Assembly (NCBI GenBank): GCA_964194865.1
Contig: CAXMOC010000023.1
Location: 1,400 to 65,399 of the forward strand
Source: an uncultured Opitutales bacterium
GTDB lineage: Bacteria > Myxococcota_A > UBA9160 > SMWR01
DNA length: 64,000 nucleotides
Direction of reading: 5' to 3'
Below, one piece after another: positions 21,251 through 36,229 of the stretch (its first letter is position 1; each line of letters opens with the position of its first letter). The notes under the pieces are model-generated. The model did no database searches. It was not told where the DNA came from and was given only the letters and a program-made list of their open reading frames with translations. Both the position numbers and the translations under genes were made by a program.

Positions 21251-22686
21251 GCGCTGGCAGCGCCCAGAGCGCTGGGTTGCGAAGCGTTTCGCCCGCGGAT
21301 CCGACAGACGAGATCGGAACATTCTCCATCGCCGATGAAGGCGCGGTTGGCGCGGCCGTCGAACGGGCGCGCCAAGCCTTTCCCGCCTGGCGCGACGCCG
21401 GCCTGGCTGCGCGTGCACAGGCATTGGAGCGTTTCCGCGACGCGGCCGCCGCATCCGCCGGCGAGCTGGCGGAGTTGATCAGCCGCGAAGTCGGCAAAGC
21501 GTTGTGGGACGCGCGCGGCGAAGCCTCGCTATTGGCTCCCAAGGTCGACGTCACGCTCGGCGACGGCATGCAGCTCGTCGCCCCCCTCGAAGCGGGCCCG
21601 AACGCACGGGCGAGCTTCCAACCGCGTGGGGTGCTGGCGGTTCTCGGCCCCTTCAACTTCCCCGCCCACCTACCCAATGGTCACATCGTACCGGCGCTGG
21701 CTACGGGCAACACCGTGATCTTCAAACCGAGCGAGATCGCCCCAGCGGTGGGCGAGTGGCTGGCGCAGCTTTGGCGGAAAGCGAAGCTACCCGAAGGCGT
21801 GTTCCAGGTGGTGCAGGGTGCCGGCGAGACCGGCCACACCCTGGCGACACACTCCGGGGTCGACGGTGTGCTGTTTACCGGCTCCTACGCGGTGGGACGC
21901 GCGCTGAAGCAAGCCAGCCTCGATCAGCCCGGCAAGCTGCTCGCCCTGGAGATGGGCGGCAACAACGCCATGCTGGTGCTCGCCGACAGCGACCTCGATC
22001 TCGCAGTCAGTGAGGCCGCGCTCTCGATCGCCGCCACTACGGGGCAGCGCTGCTCCTGCGCTGGGCGGCTGTTCGTCGAGCGCACGGTGATGGACGCCTT
22101 CGCGGACAACCTCGTAGCTGTCTTGCGCGGCTTGCGCGTGGGGCCGCCGCTCGAGGACGGCGTCTTCATGGGGCCGCTCGCTTCCCAGGACGCCTACGAA
22201 AGGATCGCGGCCTACCGCCAGCTCTCCAACGAAACCGATGGCGAGCGACTGCTGTTGGTGGAGCCGGAGCTGCCGCCCCCCTACGTCGGCGCCGGCTTGA
22301 TGCGCTTCTCGACGAGCGCCCAGACCCACCGCTACCAACGTGACGAGATCTTCGGACCCGAGGCCTCGCTCTACCCGATCGACGACCTCGACGAAGCGAT
22401 CGCCGCCGTCAACGATTCGGACTACGGGCTTGTCGCCTCGGTGATGACACGCGATCGCAGCCGATTCGAGCACTGCGTGGGCCGCATCCGCACAGGCCTT
22501 CTCAACTGGAACAAGGCCACCGTCGGCGCCAGCGGCAAGCTTCCCTTCGGCGGGGGCGGCCGCAGCGGCAACGACCGCCCGGCCGGCGTAACCGCCACCG
22601 TCTACTGCACGGTTCCCCAAGCACACCTCGAGGGCCCAGCCGAGTTCGACCCCGCTGCCCTCCCCCCCGGCATGCCCAGGCCGTGA
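21247..22686 (+). CDS. astD: N-succinylglutamate 5-semialdehyde dehydrogenase
   Basis: GPFNFPAHLPNGHIVPALATGNTVIFKPSE, FTGS, LALEMGGNN, GQRCSC, PFGG.GRSGNDRP. Confidence 0.9.
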   Translation: MSAGSAQSAGLRSVSPADPTDEIGTFSIADEGAVGAAVERARQAFPAWRDAGLAARAQALERFRDAAAASAGELAELISREVGKALWDARGEASLLAPKVDVTLGDGMQLVAPLEAGPNARASFQPRGVLAVLGPFNFPAHLPNGHIVPALATGNTVIFKPSEIAPAVGEWLAQLWRKAKLPEGVFQVVQGAGETGHTLATHSGVDGVLFTGSYAVGRALKQASLDQPGKLLALEMGGNNAMLVLADSDLDLAVSEAALSIAATTGQRCSCAGRLFVERTVMDAFADNLVAVLRGLRVGPPLEDGVFMGPLASQDAYERIAAYRQLSNETDGERLLLVEPELPPPYVGAGLMRFSTSAQTHRYQRDEIFGPEASLYPIDDLDEAIAAVNDSDYGLVASVMTRDRSRFEHCVGRIRTGLLNWNKATVGASGKLPFGGGGRSGNDRPAGVTATVYCTVPQAHLEGPAEFDPAALPPGMPRP

Positions 22687-23747
22687 CCACCGACCAAGCA
22701 ACTCAACATGAAAAAGAGGAGCAAGGCCGCGCAGCGGCCGCGCAGCGAGCCGAAGGCGAGCGAAGTCAACAGACTCGTTGGGTCTTGATGGGGGACCCAG
22801 CGCACTTCAGCGTCAAGGGTGGCGCAAACCCCCACACGCGCACCCGCTGGGGCACGCGCCGCGGCGTCGACCGCGAGCGCGCGATCGGCCAATGGCACAA
22901 CCTGCGCGGCGCGCTCGAGGATCTGGGCATTCGCGTCGTCGTGGTTCCAGCGGTCGCCGATTGGCCGGGCTCGGTTTATCCCGCCAACGCCGGCTATTTG
23001 GTAGACGTAGACGTTCCGAGCCCGCCCTCCGCCAAGCGCTTCTACCTCGCCAACCTGCTGCCGTCGCGCGCCGGTGAGAAGGATCACTATCGCAAGGTGC
23101 TCAGCGAGATCGGCTTCGCGCCGGTCGAGATCGACGACCGATACCGAATGGAGGGCGAAGCCGACTTCTTTCCCGCCGGCGGCGTGCACCTGATGACCTA
23201 CGGCGGCCTCGAGCGCCAACGCTTCGTCCCGAGCCTTGGCTTCCCCCCGTGGAAGCGCGTTTACGGCTTCCGCACCAACGTGCGGGTCGAGCCGATCTTG
23301 CAGCAGACAATCGGCGAGCGACGTATCTTGAGAATCGAGCTCACCCTGGAGGCCCACTACCACGGCGACACCGTGCTGTGCGCGTTCGGCCCCGGCCGCC
23401 GCTTCCTGCTCGGCTACCGCGAGGGCATCGCCGTGGAAGGCTGGAAGCAGCTGGAACACGAGTTCGGTGACGCCCTGATCGAGCTGAGCCGAGAAGACGC
23501 TCAGCGTTACGCCGCCAACTCCTTCACGTTCACCCAAGAAGGTGACTCGGTCCTCGTCATGCCGGACGGCCTGTCGAGCCGCCTGCTCGATCAAGTCAGT
23601 GAGCGCGGCGTCACTCCGATTCCCGTCGACGTTTCAGAGTTTCTGAAGAAAGGCGGCGGCTCGGTAAAGTGCATGATCGGGGATCTCGGGGTGGTGTCTT
23701 CCCCAACCGCCTCCGAAACCCACGAGAAGTCAAGGGAATCTGGCTGA
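22683..23747 (+). CDS. Amidinotransferase/pentein-fold guanidino hydrolase (ArgZ/CtlX-like); integration target
   Basis: SVYPANAG, EGEAD, YHGDT, EFLKKGGGSVKC (catalytic Cys); GTGA overlap with astD. Confidence 0.85.
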   Translation: MTTDQATQHEKEEQGRAAAAQRAEGERSQQTRWVLMGDPAHFSVKGGANPHTRTRWGTRRGVDRERAIGQWHNLRGALEDLGIRVVVVPAVADWPGSVYPANAGYLVDVDVPSPPSAKRFYLANLLPSRAGEKDHYRKVLSEIGFAPVEIDDRYRMEGEADFFPAGGVHLMTYGGLERQRFVPSLGFPPWKRVYGFRTNVRVEPILQQTIGERRILRIELTLEAHYHGDTVLCAFGPGRRFLLGYREGIAVEGWKQLEHEFGDALIELSREDAQRYAANSFTFTQEGDSVLVMPDGLSSRLLDQVSERGVTPIPVDVSEFLKKGGGSVKCMIGDLGVVSSPTASETHEKSRESG

Positions 23748-24937
23748 CTCGCGGTCGGCTTCGTGTCTCCATTCCGTGTAGGGGCCGCGGGGGGGCCGTT
23801 TGGGGCCGCCGCGAGGGCGTCCGCGTAGCCCCGCATCTCGTCTGGCATGTAGTGACCGTAGGTGTCGAGCAGCACCTTGGCCGTCGTCCAGCCGCCCTGC
23901 TGCTGGACCCACTTGATCGGAGTGCCGCGTGCCAGATGCAGGCTTGCCCAGGTATGTCGAAGGCAGTGGGGCGTGTAGTGACGACCCTTCCCGAGCGCCT
24001 TCAGGATGATCCCCGAGAATACTCGCGAGCGAAAGTTCGTCCCCTGGAGGAAGGTTCCCGACTCATTCGGGAACACCAGTACCTCCTCGGGGATGGGAAA
24101 GATGTTGGGCTGCACCGGGGCCAGGGCTGCGCACAGTCGCTTGGAGAGTTCCACGACTCGCGCGCGCCCCGTCTTGGTCGGGCCGAGCTTCACACCACTA
24201 GAGAAGCTTCGCGCAATCCGTGCTGTCCCTCCGGCCAGATCCACGTCGCCCCAGCGAAGCGCAGCCGCCTCCCCAAAGCGGGCTCCCGTATCCGCGAGAA
24301 ACAGGACGAGTGGGAAGTGGCGCGGGTAGCTGGCCTCGGCGATCTCAAGCACTCCCTCCAGCTCAGCAGCAGCTAGAACCTTGTCAGTGGCTACCGCCAG
24401 CGTCGAAGAGCTTCGACGCCGCGGGCGTCCCGCCTTCCATTGCTCCACCGCGTTCTCGCCAACGATCCCCTGCCCCTGGGCATGGGATAGAACCAGGCGA
24501 AGGACGTTGAGAGCCATATCTATGGACTTGGCACTCCTCGGTCGACCTGAATCCAGACAGTGATCGTAGAAGCCCTGGACCTCGCGCAGGCTGAGGGAGC
24601 GCAGATCCGACGTACCAAAGTAAGGCGTGAGATGAACGTCAACCTGAAGTCGGTAGACCCGCGCGGTGCCAGAAGCGAGCCTATCGCGAAGATTCCGTTC
24701 GATCGGAAGTTCAACCTCCCTCCACAGCCAGCCTTGAGCAAAAGCAGCGAATGGGACCTCTGACTCATTGGGTTCGTTCGCATCGAATTCGCCCAAGACA
24801 ATCTTCGCCTGAATCTCCTCGGCGACCTTTTGGGCGACTCGCTGACTCGTGCCCACGCGCTTCTTTATCCGCCTCCCCTCGTAGTGGATAACTACCCAGT
24901 AAATCCCCTTGCTATCGCGTCGGACTTTCGCAGCCAT
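23591..24937 (-). CDS. Tyrosine recombinase/integrase, reading through attL
   Basis: Arm-binding N-terminus (YWVVIHYEGRRIKKRVG), TGARFGE (R), TKTG (K), HCLRH, GGW, DTYGH (Y). Confidence 0.95.
   Translation of the reverse strand: MAAKVRRDSKGIYWVVIHYEGRRIKKRVGTSQRVAQKVAEEIQAKIVLGEFDANEPNESEVPFAAFAQGWLWREVELPIERNLRDRLASGTARVYRLQVDVHLTPYFGTSDLRSLSLREVQGFYDHCLDSGRPRSAKSIDMALNVLRLVLSHAQGQGIVGENAVEQWKAGRPRRRSSSTLAVATDKVLAAAELEGVLEIAEASYPRHFPLVLFLADTGARFGEAAALRWGDVDLAGGTARIARSFSSGVKLGPTKTGRARVVELSKRLCAALAPVQPNIFPIPEEVLVFPNESGTFLQGTNFRSRVFSGIILKALGKGRHYTPHCLRHTWASLHLARGTPIKWVQQQGGWTTAKVLLDTYGHYMPDEMRGYADALAAAPNGPPAAPTRNGDTKPTASQPDSLDFSWVSEAVGEDTTPRSPIMHFTEPPPFFRNSETSTGIGVTPRSLT
23669..23707 (+). repeat. 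attL, 39-bp direct repeat
   Basis: GTGCATGATCGGGGATCTCGGGGTGGTGTCTTCCCCAAC, identical to 45962-46000. Confidence 0.95.
23781..23808 (+). repeat. Three tandem GGGGCCG motifs (putative integrase arm sites)
   Basis: GGGGCCG at 23781, 23792 and 23802; two more at 45851 and 45862 in the same orientation. Confidence 0.6.
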
Positions 24938-24939
24938 CG

Positions 24940-25185
24940 TTACCTCTGCTGGCGCTTCAAATATGCCGCTACAGCGACTCTTACGAGAGAAGCGACCGAG
25001 ACACCCCGCTTGATTGCGATCGCCTCCAGGAAATCAACGTCAGCCCTCTCAAAGTCACCCGTAAAGCTGACCGGGTCCTTGAGGGTCGGCTTGCGGCCTG
25101 CACCTGGCCTCCACCCGCCCCAGGTTCCCTTGACCTTCCGCCGTGCCACATCCTCAATAGTACTGGCTACATCTTGATTCTCCAA
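24940..25185 (-). CDS. Small RHH/CopG-like DNA-binding protein
   Basis: WGGWRPGAGRKP followed by FLEAIAIKRGVSVASLVRVAVAAYL. Confidence 0.7.
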   Translation of the reverse strand: MENQDVASTIEDVARRKVKGTWGGWRPGAGRKPTLKDPVSFTGDFERADVDFLEAIAIKRGVSVASLVRVAVAAYLKRQQR

Positions 25186-25188
25186 GCA

Positions 25189-25455
25189 TTAATCCTTTCC
25201 AGATCCTACCGATTCAAGAATCTCCCCGACGAGCTTCTCGACACGATTCCCCTCGGCTCTCGATTCGTCGCGGAGCCACTCCCGGAGGCCTTCGACAGGG
25301 AGCAAGACGACGCCTCCACGGCGGACGGTCGGAAGCTCGGGGAGCAAGCCCCTCAGGGTGCGCTCAGACACGCCTAGAGCCTCCGCGGCCTCCTTGGGGC
25401 GCAGGGCAAGCCTCCCGACCAGTCCGAGCGGCTGCGGGTCGCGGTCAGCCTTCAA
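25189..25455 (-). CDS. Excisionase-like helix-turn-helix protein
   Basis: LALRPKEAAEALGVSERTLR...VLLPVEGLREWL (HTH_17/MerR-like); TTG start inferred. Confidence 0.8.
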   Translation of the reverse strand: MKADRDPQPLGLVGRLALRPKEAAEALGVSERTLRGLLPELPTVRRGGVVLLPVEGLREWLRDESRAEGNRVEKLVGEILESVGSGKD

Positions 25456-25798
25456 GCTGCTGCTCCCGCGCTCGCTTCCGCGGCGCGCCAGACCCGAAGA
25501 TTCTCCGATTGAGCGCCCAGAGAGCGCACTGCCGTACTTCACAGTGGGCGGCCTCCGTTCGCTCCCATCCACAGCAGTCAATGCAGTGAAGCTCCACGGC
25601 GGCCAGCGGGTGGGTGTGGGCACGATCGGCCAACTGCTGCCAGTACTTCTTCCAACGAGGAGGAAGGTTCCTGTTGGGCATCCGCGCCACCGGCTGGAAG
25701 CCCGCCGGAGGCTCTGAGATTCGGCGTCTGCGCTCCGTTTCGCCGCAAGGAAGGGGGCGAGCGGAAACCTTGGGGCCGGGGGAGTGCTTCGGGGTCAT
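25445..25798 (-). CDS. Cys-motif hypothetical protein of phage/MGE type
   Basis: AVELHCIDCCGW...AHCEVRQCALW; ATGA overlap with the upstream gene. Confidence 0.65.
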   Translation of the reverse strand: MTPKHSPGPKVSARPLPCGETERRRRISEPPAGFQPVARMPNRNLPPRWKKYWQQLADRAHTHPLAAVELHCIDCCGWERTEAAHCEVRQCALWALNRRIFGSGAPRKRAREQQLEG

Positions 25799-26223
25799 AA
25801 GCCGCGCCTTCGATCCAGCTCGCGCGCTTTGTATGACCCAAACTCACGCGGGGGCACCTTGATCGCAACTAGGAGACGCTGCCCGGCGGGACGGGCGACG
25901 GTCACGAGGCCGTCCCTCTCCATTTGCAAGAGACCACGCCGCGCAGAGGAACGGGCCAGCTTCGGGGCCACCGCCAACCGCGATAGGTTGAGGCGGAACA
26001 CAAGAGAGCCAGCGAGCCCAGCTCGATACCAACACTCCAGGCCAACGAACGTTGCCGCCTTCCCGAGTGCTGTGGCTCGCGCGAGCCAGTCGAGCGACAC
26101 CGGACCTCTGAGGAATTTCGTCCCGTGGGTGTCCCAGAGCGACTCCCGCTTCTTCCGCATCTTCTTCTTTGCCTCTAACGGAGTCTCTTCCAAGGAGATG
26201 GGCTTGAACTCGTCACCCTTCAC
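25795..26223 (-). CDS. Winged-helix-like hypothetical protein downstream of the polymerase
   Basis: KFLRGPVSLDWLARA...LARSSARRGLLQMERDGLVTVARPAG (wHTH pattern); GGAG RBS. Confidence 0.7.
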   Translation of the reverse strand: MKGDEFKPISLEETPLEAKKKMRKKRESLWDTHGTKFLRGPVSLDWLARATALGKAATFVGLECWYRAGLAGSLVFRLNLSRLAVAPKLARSSARRGLLQMERDGLVTVARPAGQRLLVAIKVPPREFGSYKARELDRRRGL

Positions 26224-26256
26224 AGCTGTCTCCTACAAGTAGGGGTCTATCGGTGT

Positions 26257-28044
26257 TCAAGAAGACCTAATAAGAAGATTGGACGGGTTGGTCAGAATGC
26301 TCCGGGTGGTGGAGCGTTCTGATCCAGCTTCGGCCCGGACAGCAGCCTCAACGGCTCTCCACATCGTCTCGCCGCGGGGATCCATGAAACGAGCCGGGTA
26401 CCGGATTAGCTGCTCAACTACGGTGCCCAGCTCGGGGCCGCCGAGCACAGCGGCGCTGGCCGCCGCCATGCAGGCGCGCATCTTCTCGACCGTGGCATCG
26501 AGCTCGGCCAGCGGTGCCTCGATGAGGACTGCGTCATGGACCGGCGCACAGACCCGGATGCCCCCCCGCGTCGCGTCGATGCACGCCAGCCGAAGCATCT
26601 CCGCCCCATTTGCTTGCATCGGGAAATTGGCAAGAGAGCGGGGGTTGGGATCCCTCGCGACGTGCAGCTCCCAGCCGAATACGGTCCAGATCTTCCCCAC
26701 GAGTTGTGCGTGATCGACCGCCCCCTGAGACCACAACCAGAACCGCGGGAATGATCTCCGATGCAGTCGGAGCAGATCCCGAGCTTCAAACTGCGTGATG
26801 CCCAGGCGCTGGGCCAACCCGATGTCCCCCATGCCGTACAGGACGGCGAGAGCGCACTGCTTGAACCTCTCCCGAACCGCGCCGTGGCTCTCCTTCGTCG
26901 CGCCCTCGGGTGCTGCCCCCGCTTGCTTGGCGAAGGCCAGGTAGGGGTCGCCCGACTCATACGCGGCGATCATGGCGGCGTCGCCGGAGAGGTAGGCGGC
27001 GATGCCGAACTCCTGCTGCGAGTAGTCGATGTAGGCGAGCCCCATGCCGGGCTCGGGACGGATGAGAGAGCGCAACCAGACCGACGCCCCGAAAAGAAAC
27101 TTCGAGCTGCTCGGCTGGTTGCGGCCTGTGCGGGTATGGAACGGGCTGAGCAGAGCGCGGTTACGCCCGTCACTTCCAATACTGAGCTTGATCTGGCGCA
27201 TAGTTGCCAGCGTGGAGCGCAGCTCTCGAAGCGGGGCGATGCGCGCGTCGGACTTTGCTGCCTCGCGGAAGGTGTCGTCGCTCAGGGCGAGCTTGCCCGA
27301 AGCGAGTCGCGGCCAAGGGATTCCATTCGCTATCAGCCATGACTCGAAGCGGTCGTGCTTGAACGTACGCCCCTCGTATACGCCGTACCGCTCGTCAATC
27401 TCCTCAATCAGCTGGTCTTGGATCGAGTCCCATCGATCGAGGAGCTTCGCCAAGAACTCGGTGTCCACAGGGATGCCGGTCCGTTCCATGTCAGCGACTG
27501 ACGCCATGTACGCCCCGCGCACGAGTGCGCGACGCAGATCAATCCCGGGTTCCATGCGGTTGAGCAGGCGCACCGTGGCTTCCACGTCGGCAGCGCAGTA
27601 GGACAGGAGTGCGCGGCGCTCGTCTCCGGTGTACGAGCCGCCTCGGATTGCGAGGTCGCGCAGCTCGTCCTTTGTTGCCGATGCCATTCCAGGAAGGCCG
27701 AAGTGGTCGAGCGCGCCGAGCAAGCCGGAACCCGACCGGGGCCGTCGTCCGTTAGTGAAATTCCGGAACTCGACATAGAGGTCAAGAAGATGCACAGGCA
27801 CCGGCCACTCGAGCGCCAGAAAGCAACCGATCTCAGCTGAGGCGAAAAAGGCTACAACCAAGACGTCGTCGCCCAGACAAAACGGCGGAGCGCCAGCTCG
27901 GAGCTCGTCCCGCCACAATTCGAGCCTGCGCCCCGTTCGGATCTCGTGGGCCACGAGGCAGAGTGGTTCTGGCAGCTCACCCGGCGGGACGTGGAACTCG
28001 AAGTCCAGAACCCAGACCGCGCAGTACAACTCATAGCAACTCAC
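26257..28044 (-). CDS. Compact family-A DNA polymerase (3'-5' exo plus pol, no 5'-3' exo), element-encoded
   Basis: ExoI VLDFEF, ExoIII YCAADV, RTGRNQPS, motif A IDYSQQEFGIAAYLSGD, motif B RERFKQCALAVLYG, NFPMQ, motif C PVHDA. Confidence 0.93.
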   Translation of the reverse strand: MSCYELYCAVWVLDFEFHVPPGELPEPLCLVAHEIRTGRRLELWRDELRAGAPPFCLGDDVLVVAFFASAEIGCFLALEWPVPVHLLDLYVEFRNFTNGRRPRSGSGLLGALDHFGLPGMASATKDELRDLAIRGGSYTGDERRALLSYCAADVEATVRLLNRMEPGIDLRRALVRGAYMASVADMERTGIPVDTEFLAKLLDRWDSIQDQLIEEIDERYGVYEGRTFKHDRFESWLIANGIPWPRLASGKLALSDDTFREAAKSDARIAPLRELRSTLATMRQIKLSIGSDGRNRALLSPFHTRTGRNQPSSSKFLFGASVWLRSLIRPEPGMGLAYIDYSQQEFGIAAYLSGDAAMIAAYESGDPYLAFAKQAGAAPEGATKESHGAVRERFKQCALAVLYGMGDIGLAQRLGITQFEARDLLRLHRRSFPRFWLWSQGAVDHAQLVGKIWTVFGWELHVARDPNPRSLANFPMQANGAEMLRLACIDATRGGIRVCAPVHDAVLIEAPLAELDATVEKMRACMAAASAAVLGGPELGTVVEQLIRYPARFMDPRGETMWRAVEAAVRAEAGSERSTTRSILTNPSNLLIRSS

Positions 28045-28682
28045 TGGGCTCGCCCGAGGAGCTTGGCTACTACGGGATGATCGAGACTCTGGATTTCCTT
28101 TCCAGAGAAAGCAATCTTCAACAGGTCACCAAGGCTATGCTCGGACCAAACAGGCTCACCAAAGTCGCCCGTTGAGATGAACACGTCATACCCGTGTGCC
28201 TCTCGGTTGGCGACCATGCGAACCCACCCGCGCTCGGCTTGCTCGGCAACCCGGCGAGCGCTCTCAAACCACGGATTGTCTGAACCGTCGGGATTCGGAA
28301 GGCGGATCGGCCAGAGGCGGAGCGAGCCCTGCGTCGTGACCACGACGCAGATTTCCACCCACTTCACCTCGGTCACCAACTCCTGGGCGACGTGGGGATG
28401 GACGTAGAATTGGGTCCCATCATCTTCCCAGTCGAGGAGCGAAGCTGGAATTCGCCACTCCTCGCCAGGGCGTACTCGGAACCATGTCTGCTTGCCCGGC
28501 TTGCCCACCGGGACGGACGTCAGGTGGCGCTGTGTGCTGACGAGCGCGTCAAAATCCTGGCGTTGCCGGAGCTCGTCAAGGTTGTCGAAGATGGAGCCGC
28601 CGCCGCTCGAGCGAGGCTCCTTGCCGGTCTTTTCTTCTTCGCTGGGTTGTTCGTTTTCGGTGGTAGTGTTGTCTTCGGCCAT
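28041..28682 (-). CDS. Hypothetical protein coupled to the polymerase (putative SSB/accessory factor)
   Basis: GTGA overlap with the pol start; aromatic- and beta-rich (KPGKQTWFRVRP, LWPIRLP, NPWFESA, WVRMVAN, GYDV, EPVW); acidic N-terminal tail. Confidence 0.75.
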   Translation of the reverse strand: MAEDNTTTENEQPSEEEKTGKEPRSSGGGSIFDNLDELRQRQDFDALVSTQRHLTSVPVGKPGKQTWFRVRPGEEWRIPASLLDWEDDGTQFYVHPHVAQELVTEVKWVEICVVVTTQGSLRLWPIRLPNPDGSDNPWFESARRVAEQAERGWVRMVANREAHGYDVFISTGDFGEPVWSEHSLGDLLKIAFSGKEIQSLDHPVVAKLLGRAQ

Positions 28683-28759
28683 GATCTTTTATCCCATGGC
28701 CTCGCAACTGCTATCATCAGAGTGCGTATCGTTCCGATGCTGGCTGCGAAGCCGGCTAT

Positions 28760-28786
28760 GGCCCCGGAGCGCTAGGCTCCGGGGCC
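28760..28786. promoter_or_regulatory. 11-bp perfect hairpin upstream of the SSB-like/pol genes
   Basis: GGCCCCGGAGC-GCTAG-GCTCCGGGGCC. Confidence 0.55.
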
Positions 28787-28809
28787 GATTTCAATTCCCG
28801 CCCCACTCA

Positions 28810-29064
28810 TCATTGGCTCTCCGTTCGCCGCAATGCAGTTGGCCCGCTAGGGCTTGGGTCGTGAGGCCCCACCTGAGCGGATCGCATCCACGCGAGCACT
28901 TCGTCCCGATCGACACGAAGCCAGCGTCGGCGGACGCGGTAGACTGGAAGGTCTCCCCGCCGAACGGCGCCACGCAGTGTGTCTTGGCTCACGCCTAGTA
29001 GGCAGGCGGCCCGGGGCAGTGTGAGGAACTGGGGGGCAGGTGTTGTTGATGATTCTGATGCCAT
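28810..29064 (-). CDS. Excisionase-like HTH_17 protein
   Basis: FLTLPRAACLLGVSQDTLRGAVRRGDLPVYRV...LRVDRDEVLAWM. Confidence 0.85.
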   Translation of the reverse strand: MASESSTTPAPQFLTLPRAACLLGVSQDTLRGAVRRGDLPVYRVRRRWLRVDRDEVLAWMRSAQVGPHDPSPSGPTALRRTESQ

Positions 29065-29113
29065 GTGGGGCCGTCTAGCACCACGTGGCCACCGTAAGGA
29101 ATAGGCGGTGGAA

Positions 29114-29974
29114 TTACTTACGGTTAAACCTTCTCCTGAACTCGGTCACGCGCGAACGAACCCCCTCACCATCGCAATCTGGCTTCTTCTCGATCTCTTG
29201 GACGAGCTGCGCAAGAAGCCCCCAGCGTCCCCTTACGCCGCGAAGGGCTTCTTCCATGTCCGCTAGGACCGGCGTGAGCCAGGGCCCGGGCGCGCCAGCC
29301 CCTTCCGCTCGCGGCCCTGCTCCGAAGTTCTCTTCCAAGTGCTCCAGCGTCCTTCTGAGCTGGGACGCCCTGCGGAGGCACCTCTGGGCATCCTTGGCGG
29401 TGCGTTTGGATTGCTTCTCATCGCCTTTGCGCTCGTAGAACCTAGACGCCTCCGTCAGCGCCGTAGCGTCGGATTCTTCCGCTTGAATCTCCCTTTCGAT
29501 CACGGCGAATGAGATGTCGTCCGCCCGCTCGACCCTGAAGTCATCGGGCTTTGGCCACCAGCTGGAATCTGGAAGCATCTCAGGAATTGCCACGTCGTCG
29601 TATCCATCGACGAAAATCTCCAGGGACTCCTCGATCTGTCGCCTATGCCCGCGGCCAAGCTTAAGGAGCCTGTCTACGAAATCGCTGCCCTCGAACCAGG
29701 CGAGGAGCGAACGTTCGAGAGCTTCGGGGTCGCGTCGAGTCAGGCTGAGATGTTCGCGCTGCTTGAAGCAGAAGCTTCCGAAGCGCACGACCGCCTTGCG
29801 GGCAGAAGGTCGTGTGAGCCGAGGAATTTCTAGTCTGGAGGAGCGGTCGTATTCTCGGAGCGATTCGGCGATAGCCTCGCCGATCGGTCCCCGGGCCCGG
29901 ACGACCTTCGCCCCTGGCAGGAAGGAGCGCTTTCTTCGATTGGGCCTCTTCGATTCTTCGGCTGCGTCAGCCAT
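29114..29974 (-). CDS. Hypothetical protein (element core)
   Basis: Long helical, charged ORF co-directional with the module; ATG 29974 chosen within ORF 29114-30064; no family recognised. Confidence 0.6.
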   Translation of the reverse strand: MADAAEESKRPNRRKRSFLPGAKVVRARGPIGEAIAESLREYDRSSRLEIPRLTRPSARKAVVRFGSFCFKQREHLSLTRRDPEALERSLLAWFEGSDFVDRLLKLGRGHRRQIEESLEIFVDGYDDVAIPEMLPDSSWWPKPDDFRVERADDISFAVIEREIQAEESDATALTEASRFYERKGDEKQSKRTAKDAQRCLRRASQLRRTLEHLEENFGAGPRAEGAGAPGPWLTPVLADMEEALRGVRGRWGLLAQLVQEIEKKPDCDGEGVRSRVTEFRRRFNRK

Positions 29975-30089
29975 CCCGCTACACCTCGCGGGTGCACCCC
30001 AAGTTGATGGAGGCTGGCCGCCGGGTGTGCGGCGGCCCCCGTTGCAACGGGTGCCTCCACTCAAGAGTCTAGCGATCGGATGAAGCTGG

Positions 30090-30395
30090 CTACAGCGACT
30101 GGAACTGCTTCAGGTTGCCAAGCGCGCGCCGCCGACCCTCCACCGTCCGCGGCCCGGTTGACAAGCCGCCGTGGTTCCGACACCGCCCGCTCTTGAGCCC
30201 CTTGCGGTGGCAAGGCCGCCCGAGCCGCGTCCGCGCCCCACAACGGCTTCCTACGAATCGCTGGATCTCGTACAGCGCCGCCCGTTGGCTCTTGACCTGA
30301 AAGAGGCGGTTCTCGAGAGTCTTCACGGTGCGTGCTGGTCGTTGCCAGCGGGTGTCGGTCATGCCTTGGAGTGTACGCTCAGACAGGTTACGCAC
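30090..30395 (-). CDS. HGGxSTG-domain protein
   Basis: RCGARTRLGRPC...GRCRNHGGLSTGPRTVEGRRR. Confidence 0.85.
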   Translation of the reverse strand: MRNLSERTLQGMTDTRWQRPARTVKTLENRLFQVKSQRAALYEIQRFVGSRCGARTRLGRPCHRKGLKSGRCRNHGGLSTGPRTVEGRRRALGNLKQFQSL

Positions 30396-31061: not shown

Positions 31062-34000
31062 TCACCCACGCAGCGGGTTGGTCTTGGCGTCCCTCTCGAG
31101 CATCGCGCCCACTTTCGAAAGAAACCGAGACGGGAGCGCGCGCAGATCATAGATGAAGGTGTACGCCACTGGGACGACGAGGAGTGTGAGAAATGTCGAA
31201 GAAAGCAGTCCTCCGATCACCAGAACGCCCATCGGATTTCGGAACTCGGCTGCGTCGCTCGTCGCAATCGCAACCGGGATCATTCCAAAGACGGTGGAAA
31301 ATGCAGTCATCAGGACTGGCCGCAGCCGGACGGGGCCTGCCCGAAGCATGGCGGTGCGCGCGTCGGAGCCCTGGTCACGAAGCTGGTTCGCGTAGTCGAC
31401 CAGCAGGATTCCATTCTTCATGACCAGACCCATCAGCGCCAGCAATCCAATCTGCGCCCAGATACTGAGGGGCATCCCGGTCACCGAGAGCGCGACAAAT
31501 GCGCCGACGAACGAAAGCGGCGCGCAGAGCATGATTACCGCGGGCTGGATGAAGCTGTTGAACTGGCTCGCAAGGATCATGTAGAGGGCGAGCAGTGCGA
31601 GCAGAAAGGAAAACCGAACGGCATCGACAGAGCTCTGCATTCGCTCGGCTGCGCCCTCGTATCGTCCCACGTAACCGGGCGGCAGACCGACCGCCGACAC
31701 GATCTCGTCCAGGCGCTCCACGGCGGTCCCGAGGGCAACTCCCTCCGGAGTGTTGGAGGATATCGTCACTTTCCTGGCGCGGTCCTGACGATCGATGCGA
31801 GCGGGAGCCGCGGCGATCCGGACACTGCCAACGTTGGAGAGCTCGATCAGCCTGCCGTTGACGGCCCGGATCTGCGCCCGTTCGAGCTCGTGAAGATCGT
31901 CGCGCTGTGTCTCTTCGAGGCGGACGCGCACGCCGTAGCGTTTCCCCGCCTCCTCGTATTGTGCGACTTCCACCCCGCCCACCAGCGCCCGAAGCGTCGT
32001 CGCCAGCGGGCGAAGTGGAACGCCCAGATCGGCGCTGCGCCGGCGGTCGATCAGGATCTGGACCTCGGGTTTCCCTGGCTCGAAGCTCAACGTCGTATCG
32101 ACATAGAGCGGGTCTGCGTGCATTTCGTCCGCGATCCGTTCGGCGGTTGCTTCTAGAACAGTCAGATCGTCGCCGGACAGTCCGTACTCGAGGGCGTAGG
32201 CCGTGAACCCCCCGCCCGAGATAAAGGGGACATCGTTGACCCCGACGCGCTTCGCATCGGGGGCCGCCCGGCGCATGGCCTCACGAATCTCGTCCATGAT
32301 CACGATCTGGCCGGTCGAGCGCTCCTGTTTGGGAGTGAGCTTGCCGTAGAAGCTGGCAACGTTCACTTGACCGCGGCTTCCGGAACCCACCGTCAGGAAT
32401 ACGCTCTCGACGTGATCGATCTCTTGAATCACCGAGGCGACCCGATGCCCGAGGGCTTTCGTCTTCTGGATGCCAGCACCGAGCGGAAGTTCGACGACGG
32501 CCTCGAATTCGCTGCGGTCCGACTTGGGCGAGAATTCGAGCGGGATGGTTCGCGCCGTCGAGACGCCGAGGTAGATCGCCGCCAGAGCGACCCCCACGAC
32601 GAGGGCGCGGTGCCGCAGCGCGTGTCCAAGGACGGTTGCGTAGGTGCGATCGAGCGCTTGGTAGAGTCGCTCGAAGGCCCGGAAAATGCGTCCGGAAGAG
32701 TTCTGCGAGCGCAGCGTATAAGCGCAGAGCATCGGAGTCAGTGTGAGCGCAACGAGGAGCGAGATCGCAACCGCAAATGAGATCGCGAGACCGTACTCAA
32801 AGAAGAAACGACCGATCACCCCCTGCATGAAGGCGATCGGCAGAAACACCGCCAGCACGGAAAGCGTTCCCGCGACCACTGCGAGACCCACCTCCGCGGT
32901 GCCCCGGGAGGCGGCTTCGAGGGGCGATCGTCCCTCTTCGATTTTACGATGGATGCTCTCGAGGACCACGATCGCGTCGTCGATCAGGAGTCCGATGGAG
33001 ACAGACAGAGCCATCAGTGTGAGGAGATTGAGCGTGAATCCCATGACGTAGAACATGAAGAACGTGGACACGATCGATGTTGGTATGGCGGTGGAGACAA
33101 TGAGAGTCGTCCGCAGACTTCTCAGAAAGGCGAAGGTCACCAGCACCGCGAGGAGGCCGCCGATGACCATGTCGATCCCGACGTCCCGCGCGGACGACTC
33201 GATGAAGCGCGACGTGTCTCGCGCCACCACGAGCTGGGTTCCGGGAGGAGCGGACCCCCGCAGCTTTTCGACTTCCGCATTGACTGCGCGAGCCACCTCC
33301 ACGACGTTGCGCCCGGACTGGCGACGAATCGCAAGAGAAATGCCCGGAACTCCGTTTAACTCGGCGTAGGTCCGCTCGTCTTCCAGCCCATCCTCGATAC
33401 GCGCGACATCCCGCACGAAAGTCGGCATACCGTCGCGATACGCGACTACGATGTCCCCGAATTCAGCGACGGATTCGGCTTCTCCCTTCGTCTTGACGGC
33501 GAATTCGCCCTGCCCGCCGGCCGTCTCGAGCAAGCCGCCGGGGATCTCGACATGTTCGGTGCGGATCGCTTGAATGACGTCGACCGCGGTGAGCGCGTAG
33601 CTCCGGAGGCGATCGGCGTCGAGCCAGACGCGAATCTCCCGCTCGCGGCCGCCCACGCGGGAGACCGAACCCACGCCGGGGAGCCGCTGGAGCCGCTCCT
33701 TGACGACGTCTTCCGCGTACTCGGTGAGCTCGGCGACGGGCAGCTCGCCGCCGATGAGTACGGAGAGTATGGGCGACGCGTCGGGATCGATCTTCTCGAC
33801 GATTGGAGATTCCGCTTCGGTCGGGATCTCACCCAGGGCAAGGGCAACCTGGTCGCGGACATCCTGGGCCTTGATGTCCACCGACTCCTCGAGCTCGAAC
33901 TGAATGAATACCTGGGAAAGACCTTCCGAGCTGATGGACTTGAGCGTCTTGATTCCAGAGATGGTGTTGATGTACTCCTCGATGACGTCTGTTACCTCGG

Positions 34001-34181
34001 TCTCAACCGCTCGCGGAGTCGCGCCCTCCAGGACGGTCGTCACGGCGAGGTAGGGAAATTCGACTCGCGGGAAAAGGTCGACGCCGATACGCCCGATCGA
34101 GATCAACCCGAGCGCGACCAGCGCTCCGATGAGCATGACGGCCAAGACCGGTCTCTGAATCGAGATGTCAGCGATTCGCAT
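31062..34181 (-). CDS. RND efflux permease (AcrB/HAE1 type)
   Basis: SIQRPV, DLFPRVEFP, GLLIDDAIVVLE, ALTLTPML, GLVMKNGILLVDY, RLRPVLMT; 1039 aa. Confidence 0.96.
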   Translation of the reverse strand: MRIADISIQRPVLAVMLIGALVALGLISIGRIGVDLFPRVEFPYLAVTTVLEGATPRAVETEVTDVIEEYINTISGIKTLKSISSEGLSQVFIQFELEESVDIKAQDVRDQVALALGEIPTEAESPIVEKIDPDASPILSVLIGGELPVAELTEYAEDVVKERLQRLPGVGSVSRVGGREREIRVWLDADRLRSYALTAVDVIQAIRTEHVEIPGGLLETAGGQGEFAVKTKGEAESVAEFGDIVVAYRDGMPTFVRDVARIEDGLEDERTYAELNGVPGISLAIRRQSGRNVVEVARAVNAEVEKLRGSAPPGTQLVVARDTSRFIESSARDVGIDMVIGGLLAVLVTFAFLRSLRTTLIVSTAIPTSIVSTFFMFYVMGFTLNLLTLMALSVSIGLLIDDAIVVLESIHRKIEEGRSPLEAASRGTAEVGLAVVAGTLSVLAVFLPIAFMQGVIGRFFFEYGLAISFAVAISLLVALTLTPMLCAYTLRSQNSSGRIFRAFERLYQALDRTYATVLGHALRHRALVVGVALAAIYLGVSTARTIPLEFSPKSDRSEFEAVVELPLGAGIQKTKALGHRVASVIQEIDHVESVFLTVGSGSRGQVNVASFYGKLTPKQERSTGQIVIMDEIREAMRRAAPDAKRVGVNDVPFISGGGFTAYALEYGLSGDDLTVLEATAERIADEMHADPLYVDTTLSFEPGKPEVQILIDRRRSADLGVPLRPLATTLRALVGGVEVAQYEEAGKRYGVRVRLEETQRDDLHELERAQIRAVNGRLIELSNVGSVRIAAAPARIDRQDRARKVTISSNTPEGVALGTAVERLDEIVSAVGLPPGYVGRYEGAAERMQSSVDAVRFSFLLALLALYMILASQFNSFIQPAVIMLCAPLSFVGAFVALSVTGMPLSIWAQIGLLALMGLVMKNGILLVDYANQLRDQGSDARTAMLRAGPVRLRPVLMTAFSTVFGMIPVAIATSDAAEFRNPMGVLVIGGLLSSTFLTLLVVPVAYTFIYDLRALPSRFLSKVGAMLERDAKTNPLRG

Positions 34182-35265
34182 GTCGGTCGGTCTCGACGAC
34201 GATCGGCGCCCCGGGCGTCAGGCGTCGGAGATCGGGGCCCACGAGGATGTGGTCGCCAGGGTCCAGACCCGCGAGAATCTCCATTCGGGTTATGTCCAGA
34301 TCCCGGGCTTTGACGGCACGGCGCACAGCAGTGTCACCCGAGGCGACGTACACGTACCGGCTCCCCTCGGGACCGAGGACGCCCTGGCGCTCCACGACCG
34401 TTGCGAGCCGCGGCTCGGGAAGGAGTTCTGCCTTTGCGAATAGACCCGGTTTGAGTTCTAGGTCCGGGTTTTCGATCGGAAGCCGCACTTCGAACGCCCG
34501 CGACACACGGTCTACCAGGTCGTTGAGGATGTAGACGGAACTCTCGTACTCGCGGTTCATGCCGTCGACCCACACGCGTGCCGGAGTGCCGACATGAACC
34601 TGCGAGAGGTGCACCTCTGGGATCTGAATGATGGCCCCCACGATGTCCATCTTCATGACCTGCACCACGGGTGAGTTCGAGCTCATCATGGTTCGCACCA
34701 TCGTGCCCTCGTGGACGTAGCGGTTGGTAACCGCGGCGGCATAGGGCGCGCGAACGACAGTATCTTCCAGGCGCTGGCGAGCGAGGGCGACGGCGGTCTT
34801 GGCGGTGCCCAGCCGGGCATCGGCGATTTCGTAGGCCGTCCTCACATCGTCGAGGCGGTCCTCGGATGCAACCGAGCTGCTGCGTAATGTCTCGATGCGG
34901 TCGCGTTCGCGTTCCGCGTTCTTTGCCTCCGCCTGGGCGAGCCGCATCGCGTGGCCGGCTTGTTCGAGGGCGATCTCGTAGTCGACCTGCCGAGTCCGGA
35001 AGAGAACATCACCGGCTTCGACCCGGTCTCCAACTTTGACGAAGATCTCTTCGATGATGCCGTCTACGCGCGGGCCGACGTCGGTCATCTTGTGTGGGGC
35101 GATGGTTCCGGTACCGAACACAGGCACGACGATGTGTTCGGCCTTGACGGACACTTCGCCGATCGTGATCGGCGGGCGTTCCGACGGTGCCGGATCCGTG
35201 GTGTCAGAGGCTCCACACCCGAGCCCGACGACTGACAGCGTGAGCGCTGTGGCCAGCGATCTCAC
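34168..35265 (-). CDS. RND membrane fusion (periplasmic adaptor) lipoprotein
   Basis: Lipobox VGLGC, VKVGDRVEAGD, coiled hairpin, VVRAPY, LKPGLFA; GTG start overlaps the TetR stop. Confidence 0.92.
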   Translation of the reverse strand: MRSLATALTLSVVGLGCGASDTTDPAPSERPPITIGEVSVKAEHIVVPVFGTGTIAPHKMTDVGPRVDGIIEEIFVKVGDRVEAGDVLFRTRQVDYEIALEQAGHAMRLAQAEAKNAERERDRIETLRSSSVASEDRLDDVRTAYEIADARLGTAKTAVALARQRLEDTVVRAPYAAAVTNRYVHEGTMVRTMMSSNSPVVQVMKMDIVGAIIQIPEVHLSQVHVGTPARVWVDGMNREYESSVYILNDLVDRVSRAFEVRLPIENPDLELKPGLFAKAELLPEPRLATVVERQGVLGPEGSRYVYVASGDTAVRRAVKARDLDITRMEILAGLDPGDHILVGPDLRRLTPGAPIVVETDRHANR

Positions 35266-35906
35266 TTCTGCTCTCGCTCTTCGAGAATGCGCTCGAAGAT
35301 CGCGCGAACGGCCGGCGCCGCGGCGGAGACGGGGCCTTTCCCCGATTCTTCCACCCAGCGTGCCGCCGCAGTGTTGACCGTACCGATGATCGAGACGGCC
35401 ACGGCCTCTGGATCGAGAGCCCCGAGGTAGCCCTGCTGCTTGGCCCTCGACGCGATGCCGATGACCCACGCTGTGAAGTCCTTGAAGATGTGAAGAGAGG
35501 GCTCTCCCATGGTCTGGCGCACCTTCCACGGAAGACCCTGGGTGCTGTGGGCGTAGAGGCGGAGCAGGTCAGCATGCTCTTCGAAGCAAGCGAAGAGCGA
35601 GTCGATTAGAGAAAGAAGCTGCTCTCGGGGATCCTCGATGGCGTCGACCTGGACTTGAACCTTGTCACGCACGGCTTCGGCCGCGCTGCGGATGACTTGC
35701 TGATAGAGCTCCTCCTTGCTGGGGAAGAGCTCGTAGAGCGACTTGGTCGAGAGTTCGGCGGCCGCCGAAATCTCCGCGACCTGTGCTCCCGGGAAACCCT
35801 TCGCCGCGAAAATCGCAGAAGCGGCAGTGATAACATCGGCCCGGCGCATCGCGGTCTCACGCTCGCGGCGCTCGGCGCGAGGCGACCTCGATTGGGAGTT
35901 CGCCAT
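35262..35906 (-). CDS. TetR/AcrR-family regulator
   Basis: AASAIFAAKGFPGAQVAEISAAAELSTKSLYELFPSKEEL. Confidence 0.92.
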   Translation of the reverse strand: MANSQSRSPRAERRERETAMRRADVITAASAIFAAKGFPGAQVAEISAAAELSTKSLYELFPSKEELYQQVIRSAAEAVRDKVQVQVDAIEDPREQLLSLIDSLFACFEEHADLLRLYAHSTQGLPWKVRQTMGEPSLHIFKDFTAWVIGIASRAKQQGYLGALDPEAVAVSIIGTVNTAAARWVEESGKGPVSAAAPAVRAIFERILEEREQK

Positions 35907-36111
35907 CTGCGAGCGGGTCCCCTCAGCCTTGCCTATCACGACGCGACCCTCTCCATCGGGAGAACAGCCGATGCTCGAATAACGACCAATTTCCTCCGTG
36001 TTCCACGGCTCCGGCGCGCCGTTAGCCGAGGCGACAGATCCGGCCGAAGGAGCGTTTTCGACCCAGAATATTGGCGGATCCCCATGGTAAAATTCATCAT
36101 ATCAATATCAT

Positions 36112-36142
36112 ACTCAATATTTTTTGAATGAAAATAGTGAGT
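36112..36142. promoter_or_regulatory. Putative TetR operator upstream of the efflux operon
   Basis: ACTCAATATTTT-N7-AAAATAGTGAGT, 12-bp inverted repeat with 1 mismatch in an AT-rich patch. Confidence 0.65.
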
Positions 36143-36229
36143 TTCCAACTCTTGAAGGAGAGGGAAGCCTCGGCCATCGGGATCGAATGAGGCAGTACCG
36201 TTCGGGCCTCACCCGGGCGTGCCGGTAGC

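What the first reader, a model, noticed from the sequence alone, without database searches (positions are those of the whole stretch)
24940..30395. Integrative element built around a compact PolA, with no primase, helicase, relaxase or capsid
Seen: nine co-directional genes feeding into int: HGGxSTG, 286-aa unknown, HTH, 213-aa unknown translationally coupled to a 595-aa PolA (intact exo and pol motifs, no 5'-3' nuclease), wHTH, Cys-motif protein, HTH, RHH. I recognise no AEP/TOPRIM primase, SF3/SF4 helicase, HUH Rep, T4SS or structural gene inside the att-bounded interval. Known: PICIs and P4-like satellites use primase-helicases, and pipolins use primer-independent PolB. Inference: a distinct class of PolA-based self-replicating island or satellite, with an SSB-like factor, PolA and an origin-binding wHTH as a minimal replicon; priming could be intrinsic, hairpin-based or host-supplied.
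Basis: partly seen in the sequence, partly recalled or inferred. Interest (0 to 1): 0.82.

Follow-up and report, generated by a model that had tools for sequence, protein, structure and literature searches.

The report
Virion-less integrative island with phage-type PolA cassette
A 22-kb island inserted in the end of a host gene carries an integrase and a conserved three-gene DNA-copying cassette (a DNA-binding partner, a compact proofreading polymerase and a winged-helix protein) that is also found in small phage-like elements, but here it has no virus-particle genes and carries efflux and P450 genes as cargo.

Summary
The gene row is real: nine co-directional minus-strand genes (30395 to 24940) run into a tyrosine integrase. 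The element is larger than reported. A perfect 39-bp direct repeat (23669-23707 and 45962-46000) bounds a 22.3-kb island in the 3' end of a host gene, with about 15 kb of efflux, P450 and regulator cargo.

The 213-aa protein, PolA and wHTH form a conserved cassette:
- The 213-aa partner lies directly upstream of PolA in 15 of 17 genome loci and in 11 of 13 IMG/VR loci.
- The partner belongs to an unannotated family of 5,646 clusters.
- It folds confidently, resembles gp32-type SSBs only weakly (Z 4.5), and is predicted to dock on PolA (0.75 against controls at 0.00).
- PolA is a Leu762-type enzyme with intact exonuclease and polymerase motifs.

No primase, helicase, Rep or virion family was found in the island. 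However, PolA relatives at 52-57% identity sit 1.2-1.6 kb upstream of GpA terminase genes in five IMG/VR contigs. In the host phylum, 0 of 11 cassette-bearing genomes have that terminase.

Verdict: this is a virion-less integrative element built on a phage-type SSB-PolA-wHTH cassette. It is a new variant of a known kind. Replication and priming were not tested.

The parts
22683..23747 (+). Host target gene (amidinotransferase-like, downstream of astA and astD). Its last codons are supplied by the island.
   Evidence: PF19420 2.7e-9. Orthologs at 59-72% identity in relatives. The 39-mer lies in its 3' end.
23669..23707 (.). attL: left copy of the perfect 39-bp direct repeat.
   Evidence: 2 matches at up to 3 mismatches, 0 in 100 shuffles.
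23591..24937 (-). Tyrosine integrase (448 aa). Its C-terminal tail is antisense to the end of the host gene.
   Evidence: PF00589 5e-18 and phrog_1 1.6e-56.
24940..25185 (-). Small RHH-like protein (81 aa).
   Evidence: RHH_1 1.1e-3, below the cut-off. Its stop lies 2 nt before the integrase start.
25189..25623 (-). HTH_17 (excisionase-type) protein. This is the longest ORF; the true start is probably further downstream.
   Evidence: PF12728 3.6e-6 and TIGR01764 8e-5.
25445..25798 (-). Cys-rich 117-aa protein with no family assignment.
   Evidence: No hit above noise. No tblastn match in 17 related loci.
25795..26223 (-). Winged-helix protein (142 aa), third member of the conserved cassette.
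   Evidence: Homolog directly downstream of PolA in 14 of 17 genome loci. Weak MarR, GntR, Crp and HTH_36 hits across 13 homologs.
26257..28044 (-). Compact family A DNA polymerase (595 aa): 3'-5' exonuclease plus polymerase, no 5' nuclease, Leu at the Phe762 position.
   Evidence: At least 7,980 homologs.
28041..28682 (-). 213-aa PolA partner, translationally coupled to PolA. Globular domain at about residues 55-210, with a PolA-docking peptide at residues 31-51.
   Evidence: AF2 pLDDT 85. gp32 core Z 4.5 and 4.3. BFVD hits. Complex score 0.75 against 0.00. Family of 5,646 clusters.
28760..28786 (.). Perfect 11+11 inverted repeat in the gap between the HTH gene and the 213-aa gene. It could be an operator or a hairpin.
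28810..29064 (-). HTH_17 (excisionase-family) protein, 84 aa.
   Evidence: PF12728 7e-10, TIGR01764 1.4e-9, phrog_66 9e-9.
29114..30064 (-). Unknown protein (ORF of 316 aa, called as 286 aa). Specific to this element.
   Evidence: No family. One homolog. AF2 pLDDT 49, all-helical.
30090..30395 (-). HGGxSTG-domain protein (101 aa).
   Evidence: NF041373 2e-13 and phrog_6177 2e-8. A homolog lies in IMG/VR locus L061.
31062..45419 (.). Cargo: RND pump, membrane-fusion protein, TetR, MBL-fold protein, two P450s, TetR, and a cyclase-AAA_16-TPR regulator.
45962..46000 (.). attR: right copy of the 39-mer, followed by the displaced original end of the host gene.

Best explanation
The nine genes plus the integrase form the integration and replication arm of a 22.3-kb integrase-borne island. 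The island inserted into the 3' end of a host gene. Its core is a three-gene cassette of phage type:
- a gp32-like single-strand-binding partner that docks on the polymerase through an N-terminal peptide;
- a proofreading Leu762 family A polymerase without a 5' nuclease;
- a winged-helix DNA-binding protein.

The same cassette sits beside terminase and capsid genes in small phage-like elements. In this bacterial phylum it occurs in elements without virion genes. Here the remainder of the island is efflux, P450 and regulator cargo.

Inferred, not shown:
- After excision by the integrase with the HTH_17 proteins, the winged-helix protein marks a start site.
- PolA with its partner then copies the circle by strand displacement. 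The primer would come either from the pair itself (as in CcPol-MP) or from a host transcript or the host primosome.
For: - att and island limits.
- Tight operon with overlapping stops and starts.
- Intact catalytic motifs. Leu at the 762 position.
- A second copy in the same genome (partner 32%, PolA 48%, wHTH 48% identity) lies next to a tyrosine integrase and tRNA-Met.
- Partner directly upstream of PolA in 15 of 17 genome loci, wHTH downstream in 14 of 17, and an integrase within the fetched flank in 8 of 17.
- Partner upstream in 11 of the 13 IMG/VR loci that have upstream DNA.
- Patchy spread: 16 of 401 genomes of the phylum, and 0 of 11 other genomes of the same family.
- Complex prediction 0.75 against a best control of 0.00. 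That mark was reached by 58 of 80 solved complexes and 2 of 110 mismatched pairs; the runs share at least 66% of contacts and the partner pLDDT is at least 79.
- Partner fold: RB69 gp32 Z 4.5 (132 aligned, rmsd 4.6) and T4 gp32 Z 4.3 (135 aligned). BFVD gave 5 hits at E<=1e-3; phage proteins named single-stranded DNA-binding protein follow from E 3e-3.
- Phage link: among 111 neighbour ORFs of IMG/VR loci, 5 GpA terminase, 4 small terminase, 3 portal and 3 capsid. GpA TerL starts 1.2-1.6 kb after PolA in L049, L050, L052, L053 and L056.
- No virion genes here.
- 0 of 11 trio-bearing genomes have GpA terminase and 1 of 11 has a PF05065 capsid hit.
- Literature (passages read): Leu762 PolAs are linked to temperate phages, and 2 of 5 primer-extending ones showed strand displacement (PMC9069017).
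Against: - No excision or extra copy was seen. Contigs of two metagenome runs cover the island at even depth, and no joint at att is among the rows shown (36 joints and 821 loose ends were not shown). Contigs drop rare forms.
- No iterons or origin-like repeats were found.
- The SSB assignment rests on Z values of 4-4.5, which is below the level the tool calls reliable. Foldseek against the PDB found nothing at E<=1e-3.
- The wHTH could be a plain repressor.
- The cargo genes are about as similar to relatives' chromosomal genes (AcrB 62-68%) as the flanking core genes are. One run of another study holds the RND region at 97-99% identity but almost none of the PolA arm. The island may therefore be a mosaic.
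- Only the first 25 Pfam families of each neighbourhood tally were visible, so a helicase or primase hit once could be hidden.
- Four of five larger IMG/VR records gave no hit to two virion families, so not every 'viral' contig was confirmed as a phage.
Confidence: 0.6

Rival explanations
1. One-off decayed prophage. A temperate phage with this replication module integrated here and lost its late genes. Host-like cargo later filled the space, and the surviving genes have no role of their own.
For: - Relatives of the cassette sit next to terminase, portal and capsid genes.
- A degraded trio lies 6 kb from a capsid fragment and a transposase in G377.
- Fragmentary integrases sit at the same host gene in relatives.
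- There is a family-less ORF and a 650-bp non-coding gap at 30.4-31.0 kb.
Against: - All ten genes are intact and tightly coupled, and the att copies are identical.
- A second intact trio plus integrase lies in the same genome.
- 0 of 11 trio-bearing genomes from 10 genera have the linked terminase. Decay would have to recur in every case.
Confidence: 0.2
2. This is a self-contained, non-viral class of PolA replicons in which PolA with its partner is a primase-polymerase (as in CcPol-MP). No helicase, primase or helper phage is needed.
For: - No primase or helicase family was found in the island, and there was no DnaB_C hit in five whole IMG/VR records.
- The pair is predicted to bind.
- There is precedent for PolA-SSB primases (PMC10061031, sections 3 and 4 read).
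- Virion-less copies dominate in this phylum.
Against: - The known PolA-SSB primases always come with a helicase and a serine recombinase, and have so far been found only in Bacillota.
- This PolA keeps a full exonuclease domain.
- Priming was not tested.
- The cassette is shared with terminase-bearing elements.
Confidence: 0.13
3. A cellular auxiliary or repair polymerase (the CHEAP-like reading), or a defence gene, carried as cargo rather than as the element's replicase.
For: - Czernecki 2023 names a similar subfamily 'cellular auxiliary' (PMC10201439, section 26 read).
- PADLOC model RTasPolA gave 6e-29.
Against: - Patchy spread.
- Constant linkage to a partner and a wHTH, frequent integrases nearby, and a position beside packaging genes in IMG/VR contigs.
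- No other PADLOC component was hit apart from weak mad1 HTH matches.
Confidence: 0.05

Closest known systems
PolA-SSB putative primases of Bacillota mobile elements (CcPol-MP-Cch2 of SCCmec; Bebel 2020 PMC7581432, search listing only; Rice 2023 PMC10061031, sections 3 and 4 read)
   Same: A family A polymerase is encoded next to a small partner with an OB-type fold. The partner is predicted to bind the polymerase. The pair sits on an integrative element beside a site-specific recombinase.
   Different: - Here the partner is upstream, is 213 aa and gp32-like, and docks through an N-terminal peptide.
- The exonuclease domain is complete.
- There is no helicase gene.
- The recombinase is a tyrosine integrase.
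- The hosts are not Bacillota, judging by 43-71% GC in the related loci.
- Priming is untested.
CHEAP subfamily of PolA (cluster #15; Czernecki 2023, PMC10201439, passages and section 26 read)
   Same: - About 600 aa, with exonuclease and polymerase motifs kept.
- Leu at motif B position B3.
- Coexists with a canonical Pol I.
   Different: - That paper treats them as cellular enzymes with no known partners. Here the enzyme has a conserved partner and lies in mobile elements.
- Membership could not be tested, because the reference sequence was out of reach.
Leu762 PolAs of temperate phages (Keown 2022, PMC9069017, passages read; Nasko 2018, PMC6302109, search listing only)
   Same: Leu at position 762, association with temperate or integrating elements, and no gp4-type helicase.
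   Different: Those contigs often carry SNF2, UvrD or RecB/D helicases. None was seen here, and this element has no virion genes.
Phage satellites (PICI, cf-PICI, P4-like) and pipolins (recalled; pipolins also from the abstracts)
   Same: A small integrase-borne island with its own replication genes, sometimes with a terminase or capsid gene (as in the 9.6-kb L052 element), and carrying cargo.
   Different: Known satellites use primase-helicases, and pipolins use a primer-independent PolB. Here the replicase is a PolA with an SSB-like partner. No packaging or helper-hijack gene is present in this copy, and no helper prophage markers were found in the 88%-complete genome.

Membership tests
PolA-SSB primase modules (CcPol-MP type) | Family A polymerase domain with the catalytic carboxylates kept | tested here: met
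   D340/E345 and H503/D504 are invariant in 25 homologs. PF00476 1e-25.
PolA-SSB primase modules (CcPol-MP type) | Adjacent small OB-fold (SSB) partner | tested here: inconclusive
   The model has pLDDT 85. The best matches are gp32 cores at Z 4.5 and 4.3, and OB-fold proteins fill the list. Foldseek against the PDB found nothing at E<=1e-3.
PolA-SSB primase modules (CcPol-MP type) | Partner binds the polymerase | tested here: met
   Prediction only: 0.75 against a best control of 0.00.
PolA-SSB primase modules (CcPol-MP type) | Helicase gene directly downstream, and a large serine recombinase | tested here: not met
   No helicase family was hit in any island ORF scanned. The recombinase is a tyrosine integrase.
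PolA-SSB primase modules (CcPol-MP type) | De novo priming activity | not testable with these tools
   This needs biochemistry.
CHEAP PolA subfamily (#15) | Leu at motif B position B3, with exonuclease motifs kept | tested here: met
   L399 aligns with the Phe of NFG in the host Pol I. DxE, D88 and Yx3D are invariant.
CHEAP PolA subfamily (#15) | Does not replace the canonical Pol I | tested here: met
   A 906-aa Pol I frame lies at G000:C12.
CHEAP PolA subfamily (#15) | Clusters by sequence with the I. dechloratans reference | not tested
   The reference sequence could not be obtained with these tools.
Temperate prophage | Integrase with flanking att repeats | tested here: met
Temperate prophage | Terminase, portal, capsid and tail genes inside the att-bounded DNA | tested here: not met
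   None in the Pfam and PHROG scans of island ORFs. None of PF05876, PF05065 or PF03354 in the whole 88%-complete genome.
Phage satellite (PICI, cf-PICI or P4-like) | Packaging or helper-hijack genes (TerS, capsid, size redirection), and a helper phage | tested here: not met
   None in this island. The relative L052 does carry TerL and a capsid gene.
Pipolin | Primer-independent family B polymerase | tested here: not met
   The polymerase is family A.

The most novel reading that the evidence does not exclude
The 213-aa partner and the compact PolA form a two-subunit primase-polymerase. Together with a winged-helix initiator, it makes a helicase- and primase-free replicon. That replicon would drive a large, unnamed group of integrative elements, both virion-less islands and mini phage-like satellites, across many bacterial phyla. 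It would be a family A counterpart of pipolins.
Probability: 0.2. Interest if true: 0.8.

Novelty: new variant of a known kind. Interest (0 to 1): 0.52.

Why it matters
- It gives context and a candidate partner to a very large, unannotated protein family: 5,646 clusters at 50% identity, with no Pfam model.
- It does the same for a compact PolA group with at least 7,980 members that has been described as 'cellular'.
- If the pair primes or displaces strands on its own, it extends PolA-SSB primases beyond Bacillota.
- That would also explain how small integrative elements replicate without a helicase or primase gene.
- The enzyme pair would be of interest for isothermal amplification.
- If the pair does none of this, the finding is an ordinary phage-type SSB-polymerase pair in a cryptic element.

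Tried and rejected
- An att site near 30.3-31.1 kb: best ungapped match 11 nt; no third copy of the 39-mer at up to 3 mismatches.
- tRNA target in the window: none.
- Rfam across 22-47 kb: 0 hits.
- Promoter and terminator scan: no more sites than in shuffles.
- Iterons and tandem repeats: nothing convincing.
- Phage records: best PolA match only about 25% identity.
- Plasmids: no PolA match at 1e-20.
- The 316-aa unknown: Atlas leads uninformative, one homolog, AF2 pLDDT 49 (so no fold search was made), and no likeness to the 259-aa ORF of the second copy.
- Profile of the partner against PDB sequences: nothing.
- Empty site in relatives: the genera are too distant and downstream synteny is not kept.
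- Left end of the second copy: no repeat of the tRNA-Met end before the contig start.
- att repeats in L031, L036 and L057: none found.
- Metagenome contigs: no att joint among the rows shown, even depth, no sign of circles.
- Five larger IMG/VR records: no PF05065, PF03354 or DnaB_C hit.
- The genome-contig scan gave no answer three times, so no organism names and no wide census were obtained.
- The careful tree did not finish; only the quick tree was used.
- Supplements of the cited papers were not seen and may list gene neighbourhoods of CHEAP or Leu762 PolAs.
- Searches for a prior description of this trio found none.
Full report
**What is there.** The window is G000:C23:1400-65399 of a 4.45-Mb, 88%-complete assembly. 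Ten ORFs lie head to tail on the minus strand between 30395 and 23591. Family scans give the following, in transcription order.

| Coordinates | Size | Assignment |
|---|---|---|
| 30090-30395 | 101 aa | HGGxSTG domain (NF041373, 2e-13) |
| 29114-30064 | 316-aa ORF (called as 286 aa) | no family |
| 28810-29064 | 84 aa | HTH_17 / excisionase family (7e-10) |
| 28041-28682 | 213 aa | no family in four libraries |
| 26257-28044 | 595 aa | family A polymerase (PF00476 1e-25; phrog_17 2e-51) |
| 25795-26223 | 142 aa | weak winged-helix hits only |
| 25445-25798 | 117 aa | Cys-rich, no family |
| 25189-25623 | 144-aa ORF | second HTH_17 protein |
| 24940-25185 | 81 aa | weak RHH |
| 23591-24937 | 448 aa | tyrosine integrase (PF00589 5e-18) |

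The junctions are tight. The 213-aa stop and the PolA start overlap as GTGA. The wHTH and Cys genes overlap as ATGA. The RHH stop lies 2 nt before the integrase start.

PolA starts at the ExoI motif, so it has no 5' nuclease domain. In an alignment of 25 homologs the ExoI, ExoII, ExoIII, A, B and C motif residues are invariant. Aligned with the host's own Pol I, the island enzyme has Leu where Pol I has the Phe of NFG. It is therefore a Leu762-type PolA.

**The element is bigger than reported.** A perfect 39-bp direct repeat lies at 23669-23707 and 45962-46000. These are the only two matches at up to 3 mismatches, with none in 100 shuffles. The left copy lies in the last codons of a host gene (22683-23747) that follows astA and astD. 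The right copy is followed by a different short reading-frame end, the displaced original end of that gene.

The island is thus 22.3 kb. No att-like repeat lies near 30.3-31.1 kb. Beyond the PolA arm the island carries an RND pump, a membrane-fusion protein, TetR, an MBL-fold protein, two P450 paralogs, a second TetR and a cyclase-AAA_16-TPR protein. No primase, helicase, HUH Rep, relaxase, T4SS or virion family was hit in any ORF scanned. The window holds no tRNA and no Rfam family.

**The trio is a conserved cassette.**
- The same genome holds a second, divergent copy on contig C141. It has a 288-aa partner (32% identity), a PolA (48%) and a wHTH (48%) in the same order, followed by a tyrosine integrase and tRNA-Met. 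Its left end was not found before the contig start.
- In 401 genomes of the phylum, PolA relatives at E<=1e-60 occur in 16, and in none of 11 other genomes of the same family. This patchy spread is typical of mobile DNA.
- In the 17 loci fetched, a partner homolog lies directly upstream of PolA in 15. A wHTH homolog lies downstream in 14. An integrase was detected in the fetched flank in 8. Several integrases abut tRNA genes. The two loci without partner or wHTH are both from one genome.
- PolA has at least 7,980 homologs in the 90%-clustered collection. The top 120 are all 503-664 aa at 56-76% identity.
- A profile of the partner finds 5,646 representatives at 50% clustering, 1,776 of them at E<=1e-30. 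The 150 listed are 180-329 aa. None of the 19 close homologs carries a Pfam domain.

**What the partner is.**
- AlphaFold2 with 25 sequences gives pLDDT 85, and above 90 from residue 51 to about 210.
- Foldseek against the PDB finds nothing at E<=1e-3.
- The independent aligner lists mostly OB-fold proteins at Z of 4.2 or less.
- The second look puts the RB69 and T4 gp32 cores first: Z 4.5 with 132 residues aligned, and Z 4.3 with 135. These values are below the level the tool calls reliable.
- Against predicted viral structures there are 5 hits at E<=1e-3. Further down are several phage proteins named single-stranded DNA-binding protein, and a protein of phage KPP25.
- The complex test gives 0.75 against 0.00 for the best of three controls. 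That mark was reached by 58 of 80 solved complexes and 2 of 110 mismatched pairs. The runs share at least 66% of contacts and the partner pLDDT is at least 79.
- The predicted contact uses partner residues 31-51, which form a conserved motif in the alignment. It touches PolA residues 171-178, 352, 437-457, 475-493 and 528-535.

Taken together, I read the partner as a gp32-like SSB tethered to its polymerase. The fold assignment is tentative, and the binding is a prediction.

**The other proteins.** The wHTH family shows only weak MarR, GntR, Crp and HTH_36 matches. Its role as an initiator is inference. The 316-aa unknown has one homolog and a poor model. It stays unassigned, so a novel primase or Rep cannot be excluded for it or for the Cys-rich protein.

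**Link to phages.** Isolated phage genomes hold only distant PolAs of about 25% identity. Plasmids hold none at 1e-20.

IMG/VR holds 17 loci with PolA at 44-57% identity. The partner is directly upstream in 11 of the 13 loci that have upstream DNA. Among 111 neighbouring ORFs, Pfam finds the following; only the first 25 of 47 families are shown.

| Family | ORFs |
|---|---|
| Tyrosine integrase | 6 |
| Resolvase | 5 |
| GpA-type large terminase | 5 |
| Small terminase | 4 |
| Portal | 3 |
| Capsid | 3 |

The GpA terminase starts 1.2-1.6 kb after PolA in L049, L050, L052, L053 and L056.

L052 is a 9.6-kb element bounded by a 46-bp repeat of the tRNA-Cys end. It carries an integrase, the partner, PolA, TerL and an HK97-type capsid gene. 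It is too small to be a full tailed phage and looks like a satellite.

On a quick tree the window's PolA sits in an unresolved group of 23 rows. That group mixes genome loci, IMG/VR loci and the terminase-linked ones. Its nearest rows are L051 and L049.

**Virion-less copies are the rule in this phylum.**
- Of 11 trio-bearing genomes (G000 and ten others, all at least 88% complete), none has a GpA terminase hit.
- One of the 11 has a PF05065 capsid hit. That hit is a fragment beside a degraded trio and a transposase.
- G000 also lacks PF03354.
- Among 148 neighbour ORFs of the genome loci, the visible Pfam families include 5 integrases and several transposases but no terminase. Only 25 of 80 families are shown.
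- Integrases 53-71% identical to this one sit at the same host gene in four relatives, without the cassette or the cargo. The integration and replication parts are therefore separable modules.

**Activity.** Two metagenome runs of one study hold the island at even contig depth (about 5-9). No joint or loose end at att is among the rows shown. Contigs cannot show rare circles, and the 20-kb limit kept the two att sites apart. A run of another study holds the RND region at 97-99% identity but almost none of the PolA arm. The cargo genes are about as close to relatives' genes as the flanking core genes are. The island may therefore be a mosaic.

**Literature.**
- Rice 2023 (PMC10061031, sections 3 and 4 read) describes PolA-SSB putative primases on Bacillota elements. 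They always come with a helicase and usually with serine recombinases.
- Czernecki 2023 (PMC10201439, passages and section 26 read) defines CHEAP PolAs. These are Leu at B3, have full exonuclease motifs and coexist with Pol I. They are called cellular, have no known partners and are closest to CcPol.
- Keown 2022 (PMC9069017, passages read) links Leu762 PolAs to temperate phages. It found strand displacement in 2 of 5 primer-extending Leu762 enzymes.
- Seven searches found no description of this partner-PolA-wHTH trio. Supplements were not available.

**Verdict.** The best reading (0.6) is a virion-less integrase-borne island. Its conserved core is a phage-type SSB-PolA-wHTH replication cassette. 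The proposed mechanism is excision followed by strand-displacement copying of the circle, primed by the pair itself or by host functions. That mechanism is inferred and not shown.

| Rival reading | Confidence |
|---|---|
| One-off decayed prophage | 0.2 |
| Self-priming, non-viral replicon class | 0.13 |
| Cellular repair or defence gene | 0.05 |

It is a new variant of a known kind, of moderate interest.

Noticed in passing
window 22719-22767: A repeated element of about 47 nt lies just after astD. Copies at 89-97% identity occur at many places in relatives' genomes. Metagenome contigs show 'goes back 45' joints there. It looks REP- or MITE-like, with variable copy number.
   Followed up: no
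L045 (G030), L047 (G011), L048 (G007), L046 (G028): Integrases 53-71% identical to the island's, some fragmentary, abut the 3' end of the same host gene in four relatives. None has the PolA cassette or the cargo. The site is an integration hot spot.
   Followed up: partly
L052:54-9681: A 9.6-kb element is bounded by a perfect 46-nt repeat of the tRNA-Cys 3' end. It carries an integrase, the partner, PolA, a GpA-type TerL and an HK97-type capsid gene, all on one strand. It could be a mini provirus or a capsid-encoding satellite.
   Followed up: partly
window 38398-40978: Two adjacent P450 genes are paralogs. Direct repeats of 290 and 102 nt at 70-72% identity lie 1.3 kb apart.
   Followed up: no
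window 28760-28786: A perfect 11+11 inverted repeat with a 5-nt loop lies in the 127-nt gap between the HTH_17 gene and the 213-aa gene. It could be an operator or an attenuator.
   Followed up: no
window 30551-30913 (+) and 30396-31061: A 650-nt gap separates the PolA arm from the cargo. It holds a plus-strand ORF with no family hit at E<=1e-3. By eye, the ORF's first 40 residues resemble an excisionase-type HTH. It may be a decayed gene or the regulatory or origin region.
   Followed up: no
window 31838-35547 in run X3: A seawater run of another study holds the RND operon at 97-99% identity but almost nothing of 24.6-30.5 kb. The cargo may exist elsewhere without the PolA arm.
   Followed up: no
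L035 (G377:C27:144600-164599): This is a degraded copy of the cassette: the partner is cut to 68 aa and the PolA N-terminus is broken. It lies 6 kb from a major-head-protein fragment and next to a transposase.
   Followed up: partly
L029:2-352, L031:8454-8804: Directly after the wHTH gene, two genome loci have a stretch 32-35% identical to the N-terminal part of the large serine recombinase of L049.
   Followed up: no
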